Origin: a virus
Lineage: Duplodnaviria; Heunggongvirae; Uroviricota; Caudoviricetes
IMG/VR virus record: IMGVR_UViG_2654587569_000003
Strand: one strand, 5' to 3'
Length of the DNA: 38,765 bases
The notes under the pieces are model-generated. The model had not been told where the DNA came from, ran no database searches, and saw only the letters and a program-made list of their open reading frames with translations. Numbering within the stretch: the stretch's first letter is position 1; each line of letters opens with the position of its first letter. Shown piece after piece: positions 76 to 30,346 of the stretch. Position numbers and translations under genes: made by a program.

Positions 76-3465
<3,390 letters not shown>

Positions 3466-24109: not shown

Positions 24110-24369
24110 GGTTCTTTCCACCATCTGAAAAATAATTCTTTAAAATACCTGACATGTAATACAGAAAAAACACAAAACCATACCTTAAATAAAAACCTCA
24201 TCATCAAGCAGATATGCATGGATAAACTACAAGACGAGATATAAACCACCCTGCATTTAAATAAACAATAAACAACATCAGAAAAATAATTCTGCTCTAT
24301 GGTTTACAATCAAAAATATCATTTATACTTTTCAGAACATCACCAGCAAGGCATAAACAAGGAAACTAA

Positions 24370-24705
24370 ATGAAGTGGATTGTGATTGATACAGTTATCC
24401 AGCCATCATGCGGAATATCTTTTTCAGTCATATGGAGTAAAATAAAATTAATAATCTGGTATCAATCGGATGCTTTCTTACCTCCTGAAAGTATATTTAC
24501 ACTGACTCACACAGGTATCATGCTCAATAACAAAGTGCTACCTGTAACCATTTACAACGTAGTACCATTCAATAAAACATTCTGGAATTTAATCAAAAAC
24601 AGCCAGGAATGCCCTACAAATACAGATAACGTATTGAATGAATGCTTTAATAACCGTTGCACTCTGCAAATATGTCCTTATGGACTAAAACAACAAAGTC
24701 CATAA
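24370..24705 (+). CDS. Hypothetical Cys-containing protein (111 aa) in AT-rich cargo segment
   Basis: AAGGA SD 9 nt upstream; TTTACA-17-TACTTT promoter-like hexamers at 24303..24331; hairpin downstream; no recognisable family. Confidence 0.45.
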
Positions 24706-24740
24706 GGAGTTTACTCACATCTGACAAAATCAATATAAAC

Positions 24741-24760
24741 AGCCCCTCCGGAGAGGGGCT
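24741..24760. terminator. Perfect hairpin AGCCCCTC-CGGA-GAGGGGCT between convergent cargo ORFs
   Basis: 8-bp stem read directly; flanking U-tracts weak in both orientations. Confidence 0.4.
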
Positions 24761-25137
24761 GGAGAGTGGCGCTATGTGCCATTGCATGGTGCCGGGTGCC
24801 TCCCGGTGAATTCAGTACCAGCACCTGAATCCGCGATTATCCCATATACCTACTCGCTGATTGCCCCTCCGCACAGGTGGATTCACCATGCCAGTTTCTT
24901 TTAACAAACTCCCCGCAAACCAGACAACAGTCAACCGCCTGAATTGTGAAGTATTTAAAAATTTCTCCGGCTAACAGTCTGGCGTTTTCTTTTTCAGCAA
25001 CGGGAAAGCAACAACCACCACACCCGCCACCAGTACACAGTCAGCCAGCACTGACATTATCCGGCTGCTGCAATGCCATTCACAAAAACAGTAAGCAATC
25101 ACTTTTTACCGTAACAGGTGATAATCCAGATATGTAT

Positions 25138-25464
25138 CTACCCCAGATGAGTAATCCGAAGTTCATCCATACCACAGGTCCTGGCTATTCTGTTGTACTC
25201 CTGAACAAGAGCAAATAATTCTGAATTAGCAACCATGAACTCATCGCAAACCCTCTGTATAGCATCACTATTCAGAAGAATAACGTCTCTTCCCGAAAGA
25301 CGATCAGGAGTACAGAACAAAACTGTCAAACGGCTGAAGGCCTTTGCTCGTGCTGCATTGACTATATCAATACGCTGCCTAAGGATGAAACACCCCGACG
25401 CCTCATCAATATTCACTCTACCCACACCATATGAATGATAAATATTTAATACTGAAAAAACCAT
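25138..25464 (-). CDS. Hypothetical protein (about 108 aa from internal Met) in cargo segment
   Basis: ORF track entry; no convincing SD; AT-rich; no recognisable motif. Confidence 0.3.
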   Translation of the reverse strand: MVFSVLNIYHSYGVGRVNIDEASGCFILRQRIDIVNAARAKAFSRLTVLFCTPDRLSGRDVILLNSDAIQRVCDEFMVANSELFALVQEYNRIARTCGMDELRITHLG

Positions 25465-25601
25465 TAGACCGTATAACAAACACTCAATCAATACTTAACA
25501 GAACTTTTATTTTTGACAAACATATAATATTTTCAACAATATACTGAGCCAGGTATATTCCAGTATAAGGCTCTGCCGGAAGAAATCTGGAAGAATGAAT
25601 A

Positions 25602-25678
25602 TGGCGCGTTGTACTGGATTCGAACCAGTGACCGATTGCTTAGAAGGCAATTGCTCTGTCCGGCTGAGCTAACAACGC
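25602..25678 (-). tRNA. tRNA-Arg (anticodon UCU)
   Basis: Canonical cloverleaf by hand: acceptor GCGTTGT/ACAACGC, anticodon loop CTTCTAA, T-loop TTCGAAT, CCA encoded. Confidence 0.85.
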
Positions 25679-25775: not shown

Positions 25776-25851
25776 TGGTGGCCCTTGCTGGATTTGAACC
25801 AGCGACCTGGCGATTATGAGTCGCTCGCTCTCACCACTGAGCTAAAGGGCC
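25776..25851 (-). tRNA. tRNA with CAU anticodon, Ile2 (ileX-like) type
   Basis: Acceptor GGCCCTT/AAGGGCC, anticodon loop CTCATAA, T-loop TTCAAAT, CCA encoded; resembles recalled ileX. Confidence 0.85.
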
Positions 25852-25900: not shown

Positions 25901-26950
25901 TCAAACGATTAAATCCTGAACTTCCCTGACTGTCTGTTCAAAACGTCCTGTCTCCAGCTCAACACCAATCGCACAACGCCCCAGTGCCATCGCCGCTTTT
26001 ACCGTTGAACCTGAACCCATAAAAAAATCTGCAACCAGGTCTCCCGGACGACTGCTCGCGTTGATTATCTGCTGCAGCATTTCTGCCGGTTTTTCGCACG
26101 GATGTTTCCCTAGATAGTACTGCACCGGTTTATGCGTCCAGACATCGGTGTACGGAACCTGCGCCGTCACACCGAAATACCGCCGCAAATTTTTATATTC
26201 ACTCAGCAGTTCCGTATACTGCCGGTTCAGCTCACTGTATGTGCTGACCAGCTGGTGGTGTGGCTTTTCCAGTTCCCCGCGCTGATGTTTTTCTGCCGCA
26301 ACACGCGCAAACAACGCCTGCAATTTGTTGTAATTACCCTCGTTCGGTAACTGCCACTGACTGGTACCAAACCAGTGCGAAGCCATGTTTTTCTTTCCGG
26401 TGGCTTCCGCTATCTGTTTTGACGTTATTCCCAGTGATTTACGCGCATCACGAAAGTAAGAAATCAGCGGGGCCATGACGTGCTGTTTTAGCTCGCGCCC
26501 CTGTGCCACATAGCCATCATCTTTCGGGCGATACGGTCCCTGATAATGTTCTGCAAACAGAATGCGCTCTGTTGCCGGAAAATACGCCCGCAGACTTTCC
26601 TTATTGCACCCGTTCCAGCGTCCGGACGGCTTCGCCCAGATAATGTGGTTCAGCACATTAAAGCGCTCACGCATCATGATTTCGGTGTCAGATGCCAGGC
26701 GATGACCACAGAACAGGTAAAGACTTCCGGCAGGCTTCAGTACCCGCCAGAACTGCGCCAGACACTGGTCCAGCCATTTCAGGTAATCATCGTCGCCCTC
26801 CCACTGGTTATCCCAGCCCTCGGGCTTCACTTTAAAGTATGGCGGGTCTGTGACTATCAGATCGACAGAGTTTTCCGGTAAGGTCTGGATAAATTCCAGG
26901 CAATCAGCGTTGATTAACTCACAACTGGATATTTTTACAGTATTAATCAT
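25901..26950 (-). CDS. Orphan DNA methyltransferase, beta-class N6A/N4C (motif IV DPPY N-terminal, motif I FxGxG C-terminal)
   Basis: 349 aa; LIVTDPPYF and DFFMGSGST motifs in circularly permuted order. Confidence 0.8.
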   Translation of the reverse strand: MINTVKISSCELINADCLEFIQTLPENSVDLIVTDPPYFKVKPEGWDNQWEGDDDYLKWLDQCLAQFWRVLKPAGSLYLFCGHRLASDTEIMMRERFNVLNHIIWAKPSGRWNGCNKESLRAYFPATERILFAEHYQGPYRPKDDGYVAQGRELKQHVMAPLISYFRDARKSLGITSKQIAEATGKKNMASHWFGTSQWQLPNEGNYNKLQALFARVAAEKHQRGELEKPHHQLVSTYSELNRQYTELLSEYKNLRRYFGVTAQVPYTDVWTHKPVQYYLGKHPCEKPAEMLQQIINASSRPGDLVADFFMGSGSTVKAAMALGRCAIGVELETGRFEQTVREVQDLIV

Positions 26951-27100
26951 AGATCAATAAGCACTTCTCTGATAGGCTCATACCGCTTTTGCGCAAAGCA
27001 GATGGGCCTGAGGTTTGCTTGTGACCCCAACGCATGAGCAGATGGCTGGCAGGTGCCGCTAACACCCACCAGCCGCCCATTACCACAAATTAAAAAGCCT

Positions 27101-27298
27101 TCACTGCGGAAGGCGTCTGTAACAACCGAACTGATAATCTGCCAGACCCGCCATAACAAGCTGAGTCAGTATTAACTGGCAGCGTTCGCGTGAAAGGTAA
27201 GTATTCTGCGCAATTTCCCCGACGGTCGCCGGTTCGGTGACGCTTAATTCATTAAACACCACTCTGGCGGTTTCGGTCATATCCTGCTGTTTTAGCAT
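27101..27298 (-). CDS. Small putative DNA-binding protein (65 aa from internal Met)
   Basis: MLKQQDMTETARVVFNELSVTEPATVGEIAQNTYLSRERCQLILTQL; HTH-like; lies after terminator and before methylase. Confidence 0.4.
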   Translation of the reverse strand: MLKQQDMTETARVVFNELSVTEPATVGEIAQNTYLSRERCQLILTQLVMAGLADYQFGCYRRLPQ

Positions 27299-27419
27299 GC
27301 TTTTTTCCCTTTTCCGGTTAACGTGACATACCAATACCTCTTGTCGAAAAAGCCAGCAAGCTGAAAGACCAGTATTCACAACTACCAGCGCGTTTAATGT
27401 TCTGTGCCGTTTTTCAGAC

Positions 27420-27446
27420 ATAAAAAAACCCGCATAAAGCGGGTTC
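27420..27446 (-). terminator. Intrinsic terminator about 100 nt downstream of Q-like gene
   Basis: Minus strand ACCCGC-TTTAT-GCGGGT followed by TTTTTTTA. Confidence 0.7.
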
Positions 27447-27529
27447 TTTCAGGTGTCCATGTCTGCTATTCGCCTCGCGGTATAGCTTTGCGAAGCGTAG
27501 CTGGATTGAAACAGTTTATGCGTAAAAAA

Positions 27530-28084
27530 TCAAGACATTTTTTGAGCAAACGATTCTCGCATAGGGATGTATAGCGCATATTCAGCAACAGCCAACCAAT
27601 TAGCAATTCGCTTTTCGCATGTACTAAAACACCATTCCGGGTGCACCTCATTCAACAATTCAGCCATTTTGCGTTTACTCATCCCCCGCCCTTCGTACCT
27701 TTGCCGCAGGATATCAATCAATCCAGGATAACGTGCAAGCGCTTTACTTATCACCCCATCAATGCGTAACGCCTCTGCATCAGTACAGTGAGACAACCAG
27801 CTCTTCTGTCTGCCAGCGATCATCTCTCGCAAGAATGCTTCCAGCTCTGGTTTATCAATCCCTGACTCCCTGATTCTACGCAGGGCTTCATTGATTGCGG
27901 TTTTTGTCAGTTTTTTGGATGCCAGCAACTGATTGAACATATTTCCTGGTTTGCCACCACCTATATACGACCAACGCCCCCACATCCGTAATTTCCCCTG
28001 GATCCAGACGGCTTCCAGCGTTTTTAGACGTAAATGCTCGCCGCTTTTGCCTGTAATTTCCGGGTATATCATATTTACGATCAC
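27530..28084 (-). CDS. Putative late-gene antiterminator Q-like protein (positional call)
   Basis: 184 aa; start overlaps rusA stop by 4 nt; followed by strong terminator; sequence family not recognised by me. Confidence 0.45.
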   Translation of the reverse strand: MIVNMIYPEITGKSGEHLRLKTLEAVWIQGKLRMWGRWSYIGGGKPGNMFNQLLASKKLTKTAINEALRRIRESGIDKPELEAFLREMIAGRQKSWLSHCTDAEALRIDGVISKALARYPGLIDILRQRYEGRGMSKRKMAELLNEVHPEWCFSTCEKRIANWLAVAEYALYIPMRESFAQKMS

Positions 28085-29932: not shown

Positions 29933-30088
29933 TTACTCCTCAGGTTCGTAAGCTGTGAAGACAGCGACCTCCGTCTGGCCGGTTCGGATTCGTACCTCGC
30001 AGAGGTCTTTCCTCGTTACCAGTGCCGTCACTATGACGGTTAAACAGATGACGATCAGGGCGATTAACATCGCCTTTTGCTGCTTCAT
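29933..30088 (-). CDS. hok: Hok-family type I toxin (51 aa), near-identical to recalled HokD
   Basis: Hand translation MKQQKAMLIALIVICLTVIVTALVTRKDLCEVRIRTGQTEVAVFTAYEPEE; AAGGAG SD; absent from track (under 60 aa). Confidence 0.9.
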   Translation of the reverse strand: MKQQKAMLIALIVICLTVIVTALVTRKDLCEVRIRTGQTEVAVFTAYEPEE

Positions 30089-30346
30089 AGCCTGCTTCTC
30101 CTTGACCTTTCGGTCCGTAAGAGGCTAATCTCTATGTGTCGCATAGATATGGCCTCAGATTAATGTTAAGCGTCTTGCAGGACGCGTAATGTTAACTGGG
30201 GCTTTTCTCTATCTGCCTTTTGGTGTTCATGCCTGAGACAGATAGCCTCAAGCACCCGCAGTCATTCTACTTAACTAAGATTTCCCCGCAAACCGTTTTT
30301 GTCCGGCACAGTAAATATCCAACTAAACCAATGGCGTTCGCTGTAT

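What the first reader, a model, noticed from the sequence alone, without database searches (positions are those of the whole stretch)
25901..27450. Small HTH protein plus orphan methyltransferase directly downstream of the Q-associated terminator
After the terminator at 27420..27446 come a 65-aa HTH-like protein and a 349-aa beta-class DNA methyltransferase with no restriction partner visible in the window. The pair resembles a controller-protein plus methylase arrangement and would be expressed only after antitermination, consistent with late self-methylation as an anti-restriction measure.
Basis: partly seen in the sequence, partly recalled or inferred. Interest (0 to 1): 0.45.

Follow-up and report, generated by a model that had tools for sequence, protein, structure and literature searches.

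The report
Prophage late-operon non-specific adenine methylase module
The two genes are real and are the already-characterised prophage M.EcoGII-type DNA adenine methylase with its small winged-helix neighbour, so the finding itself is ordinary; however, the 150 bases between them hold a strongly conserved, apparently two-state RNA leader that seems undescribed and may help keep this toxic enzyme switched off.

Summary
On the minus strand a Q-like antiterminator gene is followed by a hairpin-plus-U7 terminator (27446-27422), a 65-aa ORF (27298-27101) and a 349-aa beta-class amino-methyltransferase (26950-25901). Two tRNA genes follow, and the prophage has no restriction enzyme.

The methylase is about 90% identical to M.EcoGII. 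[quoted passage not shown] The late anti-restriction reading therefore matches the literature, but there is no target motif to look up.

The controller-protein analogy fails on family membership. The small protein is a winged helix of unknown function (PHROG 331), not an Xre-type C protein, and no nuclease partner exists here or in the related loci whose annotation I read. It is nevertheless a real gene (dN/dS 0.03-0.11) linked to the methylase from E. coli to Providencia.

One result is new. The spacer between the genes is more conserved than either gene and folds into an RNA supported by covariation. It has two mutually exclusive conformations, one of which pairs the 12 bases before the methylase AUG. 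Rfam holds no such family. Distant relatives carry a Mu Com-like gene upstream instead, so the best analogy is com-mom.

The parts
27530..28084 (-). Q-like late antiterminator gene (184 aa, DUF1133 type)
   Evidence: Pfam DUF1133 E = 6e-103 and Phage_antitermQ 28.3 bits (cut-off 26). PHROG 753 'anti-termination protein Q-like' E = 8e-78. Antitermination activity of this Q type is inferred, not shown.
27447..27529 (-). Intergenic segment expected to hold the late promoter (PR') and the start of a short terminated transcript
   Evidence: Position is analogous to lambdoid PR'-tR'. By eye only, TTGATT-17-TTCAAT overlaps the Q stop codon; the consensus scan did not report it. Weak sub-threshold similarity to the isrK sRNA (E = 0.023, 21.6 bits against 50). 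Inferred.
27422..27446 (-). Intrinsic terminator (tR'-like): 7-bp GC-rich stem, 5-nt loop, U7
   Evidence: Sequence; fold z = -5.0.
27101..27298 (-). 65-aa winged-helix protein gene (PHROG 331, function unknown)
   Evidence: dN/dS 0.00-0.11 and third-position bias. AF2 with a 34-sequence MSA gives pLDDT 89.6 and H1-b-H2-H3-wing topology. Foldseek best matches are IclR, MarR and O-methyltransferase N-terminal winged helices at E about 1e-3. TrmB hit E = 0.008, below threshold. Found directly upstream of the methylase in SfV, cdtI, mEp460, phiP27, 1720a-02 and in Klebsiella, Morganella and Providencia phages.
27087..27114 (-). P0 hairpin GCCUUC-CGCAGU-GAAGGC overlapping the small-ORF stop codon, followed by UUUUUAAUUU; a possible second terminator
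   Evidence: Terminator-like hit. An equivalent hairpin of different sequence precedes the leader in most of the loci that lack the small ORF, and it is absent in the Providencia type.
26951..27087 (-). Conserved structured leader RNA (model R1).
- Fold 1: P1 27079-27075/27007-27003; P2 27074-27063/27055-27044; P3 27042-27034/27022-27014; P4 27001-26995/26989-26983.
- Fold 2: P1' 27080-27075/27039-27034; P3' 27027-27017/26962-26951; AGGC/GCCU 27009-27006/26977-26974.
   Evidence: Invariant core AAAUGGGCGGCUGGUGGGUGUU from E. coli to Providencia. Covariation counts. CM hits in 71 of 91 sources. Energies. No Rfam 15 match.
25901..26950 (-). 349-aa beta-class N6-adenine DNA methyltransferase of the M.EcoGI/M.EcoGII family; this allele carries P280L
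   Evidence: Pfam PF01555 E = 4.8e-44. 90% identity over the full length to M.EcoGII, using the sequence from the supplement of PMC11551740. 89% to the phage 1720a-02 enzyme, which Murray et al. name as a close relative. P280L.
25776..25851 (-). tRNA with CAU anticodon (called Met by ARAGORN, annotated tRNA-Ile in RefSeq; ileZ-like)
25602..25678 (-). tRNA-Arg (UCU), argO/argN-like

Best explanation
This is the start of the late operon of a lambdoid, stx-negative E. coli prophage.

1. Transcription from the late promoter downstream of the Q-like gene normally stops at the tR'-like terminator. Only Q-modified polymerase, after induction, reads on into the 65-aa gene, the leader, the methylase and the tRNA genes (inferred from anatomy).
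2. The methylase belongs to the M.EcoGI/M.EcoGII family. It is expected to methylate adenine N6 in essentially any sequence context on replicating phage DNA, so that progeny resist the many restriction systems that adenine methylation blocks. Family membership is shown here; activity and role come from published work on M.EcoGII.
3. Indiscriminate methylation harms the host, so the gene sits behind several gates. These are the terminator, a possible second terminator at the small-ORF stop codon, a start site without a usable Shine-Dalgarno sequence, and a conserved leader RNA.
4. The leader can adopt two exclusive folds. The thermodynamically favoured fold pairs nucleotides -12 to -1 before the AUG with the 3' half of helix P3. 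The alternative fold, a three-way junction made only of 5'-proximal sequence, leaves the start region free.
5. I infer that the leader limits methylase translation. Either only nascent transcripts are translated before they refold, or a factor must hold the junction fold open. The upstream winged-helix protein is one candidate for that factor.
6. The logic resembles phage Mu com-mom rather than a C-protein/R-M unit.
For: Family and anatomy:
-.
- M.EcoGII is 349 aa, prophage-borne, non-specific, not expressed in the lysogen and deleterious when constitutive; phage 1720a-02 carries a close homologue (PMC5778455).
- Homologues at 92-93% similarity in O111 STEC were listed as 'nonspecific', and no additional methylated motif was detected under the conditions tested (PMC6602927).
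- Review PMC12707154 groups Mom and M.EcoGII as silent in lysogens and toxic.

Position:
- In every relative inspected the pair sits between a Q-type gene and the lysis genes, although the Q types are unrelated.
- The region is widespread: 3422 of 5426 complete E. coli genomes hold a match to the 2.6-kb query, 651 of them over at least 80% of it.
- No promoter-like site precedes the methylase, and no restriction enzyme is present.

Leader:
- The invariant blocks are more conserved than the flanking genes.
- Fold 1: 86-88% of cells paired against 28-41% when partners are slid; 13 of 32 pairs (MAFFT alignment) and 23 of 32 pairs (model-fitted alignment) have compensatory changes, against 1-9 in controls.
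- Fold 2: 94.3% paired, 10 compensatory pairs.
- P3', which reaches the base before the AUG: 91.6% paired against 25-41%; pair types GC:44/AU:13, AU:43/GC:7 and AU:40/GC:6.
- G-U pairs show that the sense strand is the one that folds.
- Fold 2 is the more stable in 45 of 58 leaders. The MFE equals fold 2 in 31 and fold 1 in 5 (MFE examples).

Analogy:
- Distant homologues in Vibrio and Shewanella have a Com-like zinc-ribbon ORF directly upstream (Pfam Zn_ribbon_Com 34 bits against a 22.9 cut-off for Shewanella), and many have a LexA-box-like site.
- Non-specific adenine methylases replace mom downstream of com in Mu-like prophages (PMC3299994).
Against: - Nothing here measures activity. Non-specificity is extrapolated from a 90%-identical enzyme.
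- This allele has Leu at a position that is Pro in 173 of 182 homologues.
- Anti-restriction by this family has been proposed in the literature, not demonstrated in vivo.
- The late promoter was not found by the scanner, and Q activity of the DUF1133 type is untested.
- For the leader, the sequences are related, so shuffle controls overstate significance.
- P1' shows only one-sided changes.
- Nearest-neighbour energies ignore tertiary contacts.
- Which fold allows translation is my inference.
- No evidence links the winged-helix protein to the RNA, and 22 of 60 leader-bearing loci lack it.
Confidence: 0.72

Rival explanations
1. The 65-aa protein is a controller (C) protein that binds an operator and times transcription of a sequence-specific orphan methylase.
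For: The small DNA-binding-type fold sits directly upstream of the methylase and is co-inherited across genera. NCBI names it 'TrmB family transcriptional regulator'.
Against: The fold is a winged helix, not the Xre-type HTH of C proteins. There is no endonuclease. The region upstream of the small gene is not conserved, and other genes are inserted there in phiP27 and cdtI. 22 of 60 leader-plus-methylase loci lack the gene. The methylase family is non-specific. The conserved element between the genes behaves as RNA, with G-U pairs, a junction and exclusive helices.
Confidence: 0.1
2. The module is a decaying remnant. This allele (P280L in the YYPGKHPCEKP motif) is inactive or attenuated, and the genes are carried passively by a cryptic prophage.
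For: Pro is found at this position in 173 of 182 homologues. The otherwise near-identical prophage of strain 12A has Pro. Several prophages have lost the methylase through deletions that end inside the leader. Constitutive expression slows growth.
Against: The ORF is full-length with all motifs intact. Phage phiP27 also has Leu there, and Ala, Gln and Ser occur as well. The prophage retains complete lysis, head and tail genes.
Confidence: 0.12
3. The enzyme's main role is not anti-restriction. It could instead mark DNA or RNA for the phage's own purposes, such as packaging, replication timing, gene expression or RNA methylation, or it could counter methylation-blind defences.
For: M.EcoGII also methylates ssDNA, RNA and RNA:DNA hybrids in vitro (abstract). 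Orphan phage methylases such as P1 Dmt serve packaging (PMC12707154).
Against: Context-free methylation carries no positional information. The parallel placement of unrelated non-specific adenine methylases at the mom position of Mu-like prophages points to the Mom-like protective role (PMC3299994).
Confidence: 0.1
4. The conserved spacer is not a translational switch. It is a single-state structured element with some other function, such as an RNase processing site, a stabiliser, a ligand-sensing riboswitch, a binding site for a host factor, or an independent sRNA.
For: The junction nucleotides are extremely conserved, which is typical of ligand or protein binding. P1' has no compensatory changes. 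In Vibrio the same leader precedes the Com-like ORF rather than the methylase.
Against: Alignment columns 72-77 covary with two different partners. The second partner ends at the base before the AUG in every lineage, including the Vibrio copies, where the AUG belongs to the Com-like ORF.
Confidence: 0.25

Closest known systems
M.EcoGII / M.EcoGI (E. coli O104:H4 C227-11 prophage methylases; Murray et al. 2018, PMC5778455)
   Same: 349 aa, beta-class order (DPPY ... TRD ... FxGxG), about 90% identity over the full length, prophage-borne, orphan.
   Different: About 35 substitutions, including P280L in a near-invariant motif. Activity of this allele is untested. The published work does not describe the upstream small gene or the leader.
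Phage Mu com-mom
   Same: A toxic, broad anti-restriction DNA-modification gene is expressed late. It is preceded by a small gene and an mRNA structure that hides the start site. Com-like genes sit upstream of distant homologues of this methylase.
   Different: Mom is an acetamido-transferase, not a methylase. The window's small protein is a winged helix with no zinc ribbon. RNA binding by it is unproven. Transcription control runs through Q antitermination, not through the Mu C protein and Dam/OxyR.
Hia5 / Hin1523 / Nma1821 non-specific adenine methylases of Mu-like prophages (Drozdz et al. 2012, PMC3299994)
   Same: Near-context-free m6A methylases occupying a late position in temperate phages.
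   Different: Described as alpha-class enzymes by Murray et al., so unrelated in motif order, and found in a different phage type.
Controller (C) protein-regulated restriction-modification systems
   Same: A small helix-turn-helix-type gene lies next to a methylase gene.
   Different: Different fold family, no endonuclease, no C-box, and the methylase is non-specific.
Start-site control by long-range RNA pairing and refolding (MS2 maturation gene; hok mRNA). Cited from my own knowledge.
   Same: A 5'-proximal fold leaves the start free, and a more stable long-range pairing closes it.
   Different: No sequence or structural homology. The kinetic mechanism is only a hypothesis here.

Membership tests
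Beta-class N6/N4 amino DNA methyltransferases (Pfam PF01555) | Profile match above threshold | tested here: met
   151.4 bits against a cut-off of 26.7, E = 4.8e-44, covering residues 29-340. Solved relatives include M.RsrI, CcrM and M.MboIIA.
Beta-class N6/N4 amino DNA methyltransferases (Pfam PF01555) | Motif order: catalytic DPPY N-terminal, central TRD, AdoMet-binding FxGxG C-terminal | tested here: met
   DPPY at 35-38 and FMGSG at 310-314.
M.EcoGI/M.EcoGII family | Close full-length sequence relationship to the characterised enzymes | tested here: met
   315/350 identical to M.EcoGII as printed in a paper supplement. The supplement is machine-read text, so true identity may be slightly higher. 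89% identical to the phage 1720a-02 enzyme cited as a close relative.
M.EcoGI/M.EcoGII family | Methylation of adenine in any sequence context | not testable with these tools
   Needs expression plus SMRT/nanopore sequencing or LC-MS. Also note P280L.
M.EcoGI/M.EcoGII family | Prophage location; silent in the lysogen | tested here: inconclusive
   Prophage location is met. Silence is only inferred from the terminator, the lack of a promoter and the leader.
Controller (C) proteins of R-M systems | Xre-type helix-turn-helix fold | tested here: not met
   No HTH_3 hit; only weak TrmB and MarR hits. The AF2 model is a winged helix, and its structural neighbours are IclR, MarR and O-methyltransferase N-terminal winged helices.
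Controller (C) proteins of R-M systems | Linked restriction endonuclease gene | tested here: not met
   None in the prophage or beside the pair in nine related phages. phiP27 has a GIY-YIG nuclease-family gene inserted upstream, which the other relatives lack.
Controller (C) proteins of R-M systems | Conserved palindromic operator (C-box) upstream of the C gene | tested here: inconclusive
   The upstream region is not conserved between relatives. No dedicated motif search was run.
Mu Com translational activators (Pfam PF10122) | Zinc ribbon with CxxC...CxxC | tested here: not met
   The window protein has only two Cys residues and no Com hit. The feature is met by the small ORF upstream of the Shewanella homologue (34 bits against 22.9), and weakly by two Vibrio ORFs.
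Lambdoid Q / PR' / tR' late-control unit | Q-family gene immediately upstream | tested here: met
   Phage_antitermQ 28.3 bits against 26; DUF1133; PHROG 753.
Lambdoid Q / PR' / tR' late-control unit | Intrinsic terminator shortly downstream of Q | tested here: met
   Hairpin plus U7 at 27446-27422, z = -5.0.
Lambdoid Q / PR' / tR' late-control unit | Constitutive late promoter with a Q-utilisation site | tested here: inconclusive
   The consensus scan reported nothing in 27447-27529. There is only a by-eye TTGATT-17-TTCAAT candidate.
Any Rfam 15 RNA family (for the leader) | Covariance-model match | tested here: not met
   No gathering-level hit. At E up to 10, the only hits overlapping the leader (27087-26951) are noise: SNORD25 and U1.

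The most novel reading that the evidence does not exclude
The 137-nt leader between the winged-helix gene and the methylase (27087-26951, minus strand) is an undescribed, widely distributed bistable riboregulator. It occurs in Enterobacterales, Morganellaceae and some Vibrio plasmids. It gates translation of a non-specific adenine methylase by alternating between a 5'-proximal three-way junction, which leaves the start free, and a more stable fold that pairs the 12 nucleotides before the AUG. The upstream winged-helix protein (or Com-like proteins in other lineages), a ligand, or co-transcriptional timing would decide which fold prevails. If so, it would be the missing explanation for why M.EcoGII-type enzymes stay silent in lysogens.
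Probability: 0.4. Interest if true: 0.6.

Novelty: new member of a known kind. Interest (0 to 1): 0.35.

Why it matters
As stated, the finding adds little. It is one more copy of a methylase family that is characterised, sold as a reagent (EcoGII) and matched in most complete E. coli genomes.

- There is no recognition motif to find.
- The regulatory logic is not that of an R-M controller.

What could matter is the leader. Murray et al. noted as an open point that M.EcoGI/II are not expressed in the lysogen. A conserved two-state RNA that hides the start codon, together with a co-inherited small protein of unknown function, gives a concrete and testable mechanism for that silence.

Different lineages appear to gate the same toxic enzyme in different ways: Q antitermination plus this leader, a LexA-box-like site plus a second leader, or Com-like proteins. 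The leader would also be a new entry for RNA-family databases, and it is relevant to anyone expressing these enzymes from native context.

Tried and rejected
- Small peptide in the spacer: rejected. The MGGWWV reading frame, with its tandem Trp codons, looked like an attenuator leader peptide. However, 1-nt indels break every frame, the stop falls anywhere after 7 to 45 codons, Providencia lacks the Trp codons, and no Shine-Dalgarno sequence precedes it.
- Translational coupling through an ATGA overlap: rejected. phiP27 and 1720a-02 lack the overlap.
- P5 hairpin (AUCAG/CUGAU) and GCUCAU/GUGAGC pairing: several lineages break these, so both were dropped in favour of P3 and P3'.
- All-against-all column covariation scan for pseudoknots with the tail: dominated by clade-level signal and not interpretable.
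- StxS homology of the short PR'-tR' transcript: not the same element. StxS derives from a 258-nt transcript of a different Q type.
- DNA palindrome or operator reading of the hairpins: disfavoured by frequent G-U pairs, by the enclosing P1, and by the exclusive alternative helices.
- Single-sequence AF2 of the small protein: uninformative (pLDDT 53). The 34-sequence MSA fixed this.
- Text search of 8 million papers for the leader core sequence: no hits.
- Authoritative M.EcoGII sequence: I could not obtain one and used the machine-read copy from a paper supplement. That copy contains obvious reading errors.
Full report
**What is there.** On the minus strand the window carries the late-control region of a lambdoid prophage. 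Reading 5' to 3':

- a DUF968/HNH gene (29563-28439) and RusA (28446-28081);
- a 184-aa Q-like gene (28084-27530; DUF1133, also above threshold for Phage_antitermQ; PHROG 753);
- an 84-nt gap, then a hairpin with a U7 tail at 27446-27422;
- a 65-aa ORF (27298-27101);
- a 150-nt spacer;
- a 349-aa ORF (26950-25901);
- two tRNA genes (25851-25776, anticodon CAU; 25678-25602, Arg-UCU).

The segment from the Q stop codon to the terminator folds far better than shuffled sequence (z = -5.0). The simple scanner missed the terminator, probably because the stem can extend into the U tract. It found no promoter-like site on this strand between the terminator and the methylase start.

RefSeq annotation of a near-identical prophage (E. 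coli O111:H2 12A, inserted next to potC) lists integrase, repressor, replication, lysis, head and tail genes, and no restriction enzyme.

**The methylase.**

- It matches Pfam N6_N4_Mtase at E = 4.8e-44. DPPY lies near the N-terminus and FxGxG near the C-terminus, which is the beta-class order.
- It is 90% identical over its full 349 residues to M.EcoGII, using the sequence printed in the supplement of PMC11551740. That copy is machine-read and contains reading errors.
- It is 89% identical to the enzyme of phage 1720a-02 and 92.5% identical to that of Stx2e phage phiP27.
- Murray et al. (PMC5778455) showed that M.EcoGII methylates adenine in any context. They also reported that it is prophage-borne, not expressed in the lysogen, and harmful when constitutively expressed. 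They named 1720a-02 as carrying a close relative and proposed that the enzyme switches on at induction to defeat restriction.
- Homologues at 92-93% similarity in O111 STEC were listed as 'nonspecific', and no additional methylated motif was detected under laboratory conditions (PMC6602927).
- A 2025 review groups M.EcoGII with Mu Mom as silent in lysogens and toxic (PMC12707154).

There is no target motif to look up, and the in-vivo anti-restriction role remains a proposal.

One caveat concerns this allele. It has Leu at residue 280 in the motif YYPGKHPCEKP. That position is Pro in 173 of 182 homologues I collected and in the otherwise near-identical 12A prophage. phiP27 also has Leu. I cannot tell whether the change attenuates the enzyme.

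**The small protein.**

- It is a real gene. Against close relatives dN/dS is 0.00-0.11, and variable sites fall 3/5/20 over codon positions.
- The longer 106-aa reading, which some databases annotate (once as 'lipoprotein'), shows no coding signature (14/10/12; dN/dS 0.58). The start is therefore ATG 27298.
- With a 34-sequence alignment, AlphaFold gives pLDDT 89.6 and an H1-beta-H2-H3-wing topology.
- The nearest solved folds are generic winged helices (IclR, MarR, N-terminal domains of O-methyltransferases; further down the list SelB-WH and Z-alpha) at E about 1e-3. None reached the tool's E <= 0.001 tally.
- Pfam hits are sub-threshold (TrmB, MarR), PHROG 331 has no function, and NCBIfam has nothing.
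- It is not an Xre-type C protein and has no nuclease partner. Its upstream region is not conserved; phiP27 and cdtI have other genes inserted there.
- It sits directly upstream of the methylase in SfV, cdtI, mEp460, phiP27 and 1720a-02, in Stx2 phages, and in Klebsiella, Morganella and Providencia phages. It always lies between a Q-type gene (of several unrelated types) and the lysis genes.
- Among 60 loci in an 80-species fetch that carry the leader described below, 38 have a homologue of it. The other 22 go straight from a terminator to the leader and methylase.

It is a frequent but dispensable partner. Its role is unknown.

**The unexpected part: the spacer.**

The spacer between the small gene and the methylase is 138-150 nt in every phage examined. 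Its sequence is better conserved than either gene. AAAUGGGCGGCUGGUGGGUGUU is invariant between E. coli and Morganella/Providencia phages, whose small proteins are only 48% identical and whose methylases are 62-63% identical. One-nucleotide indels rule out a conserved reading frame.

On a MAFFT alignment of 58 distinct leaders, I proposed a structure with these helices:

- P1, AUGGGC/GCCCA, closing a three-way junction;
- P2, a long GC-rich hairpin;
- P3;
- P4, a separate hairpin.

This structure has 86% of cells paired, against 29-41% when partners are slid. Thirteen pairs show changes on both sides, against 1-6 in the controls. A covariance model built from it (R1) finds the element in 71 of 91 sources. 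These include Serratia, Gilliamella and four Vibrio loci, and there is exactly one copy in the window. On the model-based alignment, 23 of 32 pairs show compensatory changes, against 4-9 in the controls. That alignment is fitted to the structure and leans towards it. Individual pairs show three Watson-Crick types (for example CG:21, UA:18, AU:11), and G-U pairs are common, so the sense strand is the one that folds. Rfam 15 has no family matching it, and no paper in the library contains the core sequence.

**Two folds.**

RNAfold predicts a different fold, not the junction, for the window, a Salmonella leader and a Providencia leader. In that fold:

- AUGGGC pairs with GCUCAU, the 5' strand of P3. 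This is P1'.
- The 3' half of P3 (GGGUCA-C-AAGC, 27027-27017) pairs with GCUU-AU-UGAUCU (26962-26951), the 12 nucleotides before the AUG. This is P3'.
- AGGC pairs with GCCU.

Each of these helices holds across the alignment:

| Helix | Cells paired | When slid | Changes seen |
|---|---|---|---|
| P3' | 91.6% | 25-41% | compensatory: GC:44/AU:13, AU:43/GC:7, AU:40/GC:6 |
| P1' | 97.7% | 30-51% | one-sided only; its 5' strand is invariant |
| AGGC/GCCU | 95.3% | 5-52% | GC:40/AU:9/GU:7 |
| Whole second fold | 94.3% | 30-45% | 10 compensatory pairs |

Alignment columns 72-77 therefore covary with two different partners. Some substitutions fit only P3 (column 53 with 77; 52 with 78). Others fit only P3' (76 with 136). 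That pattern is the signature of mutually exclusive structures that are both under selection.

With constraints, the second fold is the more stable in 45 of 58 leaders, by a mean of 3.6 kcal/mol. The unconstrained MFE equals the second fold in 31 leaders and the junction fold in 5.

The E. coli-type start site has no usable Shine-Dalgarno sequence; the nearest GAG lies about 17-19 nt upstream.

My inference is that the stable fold closes the start site and the junction fold opens it. The junction fold uses only 5'-proximal sequence and can therefore form first during transcription. Two routes are possible. The leader may allow translation only briefly on nascent RNA, or a factor may hold the junction. 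Which fold is 'on', and what decides between them, is not shown.

**Why com-mom is the better analogy.**

- In Vibrio plasmid locus L193 the order is: a 98-aa ORF that looks winged-helix-like by eye (not tested), the same leader (R1, E about 1e-6), a 41-aa CxxC...CxxC ORF whose AUG sits at the leader's 3' end, and then the methylase.
- The corresponding small ORF in Shewanella matches Pfam Zn_ribbon_Com above threshold, and two Vibrio ones match weakly.
- Other Vibrio, Aliivibrio and Psychromonas homologues have a different conserved leader, preceded by a LexA-box-like CTGT-N8-ACAG.
- Mu Com is a small protein that opens a translation-inhibition structure in mom mRNA (PMC6483171). Unrelated non-specific adenine methylases replace mom downstream of com in Mu-like prophages (PMC3299994).
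- Different lineages have thus placed this toxic enzyme family behind different tight gates.

**Verdict.** The finding is real but, as stated, already explained. It is a member of the M.EcoGI/II prophage methylase family in its usual place at the head of the late operon. It is wrong about a target motif and about C-protein kinship. The leader RNA is a candidate new regulatory element and deserves experimental follow-up. Its structure is well supported, and its function is inferred.

Noticed in passing
window 26951-27087 (- strand): The spacer between the small ORF and the methylase is more conserved than either gene. It forms a covariation-supported RNA with two mutually exclusive folds, one of which pairs the 12 nt before the AUG. 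There is no Rfam family for it.
   Followed up: yes
L196-L209, about 2750-3000 (Vibrio, Aliivibrio, Psychromonas): Methylase homologues at 51-58% identity have a different conserved leader (GCCUUGAGUACCUGAGACCCA ... UGGAGAGGAAGCA ... GC hairpin ... UUCAAGGCUCU ... GGAG-AUG). A LexA-box-like CTGT-N8-ACAG precedes it. In L192, L193 and L205 the 5' part of this motif lies directly upstream of the R1-type leader. Rfam has no match.
   Followed up: partly
L193 2841-2966; L200 and L207, just upstream of the methylase start (about 2850-3000): Com-like zinc-ribbon ORFs (CxxC...CxxC, 41-47 aa) lie directly upstream of distant methylase homologues. The Shewanella ORF passes the Pfam Zn_ribbon_Com threshold.
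   Followed up: partly
window 26111-26113 (codon 280 of the methylase, - strand): A single-base difference from the otherwise near-identical prophage of strain 12A gives P280L in the near-invariant YYPGKHPCEKP motif. phiP27 has Leu at the same position.
   Followed up: partly
L014, L048, L067, L088, L104, L112 (also L030, L071, L099, L120): Some prophages keep the small ORF and the first ~25-45 nt of the leader but have lost the methylase. One deletion type joins GGTGGGTG in helix P2 to a GTGGTGGTTG sequence that in the window lies near 25000, removing the methylase and the tRNA genes.
   Followed up: partly
window 27422-27500 (- strand): The predicted short PR'-to-terminator transcript has a second hairpin and a weak, sub-threshold resemblance to the Salmonella Gifsy-1 sRNA isrK (E = 0.023). 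It would be the positional counterpart of StxS in Stx phages, but it is not homologous to StxS.
   Followed up: partly
window 27299-27421 (- strand): An in-frame 41-codon extension makes a 106-aa ORF that some databases annotate (once as 'lipoprotein', with an LSAC lipobox-like string). It shows no codon-position bias and is probably not translated.
   Followed up: yes
window 24731-24920 (-), 30086-30257 (-), 38296-38347 (+): Rfam gathering-level hits to the STnc100 sRNA (in the late operon, upstream of the esterase gene), to sok (with hokD) and to DicF.
   Followed up: no
window 24124-25600: Stx phages carry stx genes in the stretch between the tRNA genes and the nanS-p-like esterase gene. 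Here that stretch holds an IraM-like anti-adapter ORF (24370-24705, + strand), a tiny DUF3927 gene and an unassigned 117-aa ORF (25491-25138, - strand).
   Followed up: no
L001 5929-7158 (phiP27), L004 1834-3222 (cdtI): The gap between Q and the small ORF is an insertion hot spot. phiP27 has a 409-aa GIY-YIG nuclease-family gene there, and cdtI has two reverse-strand genes.
   Followed up: no
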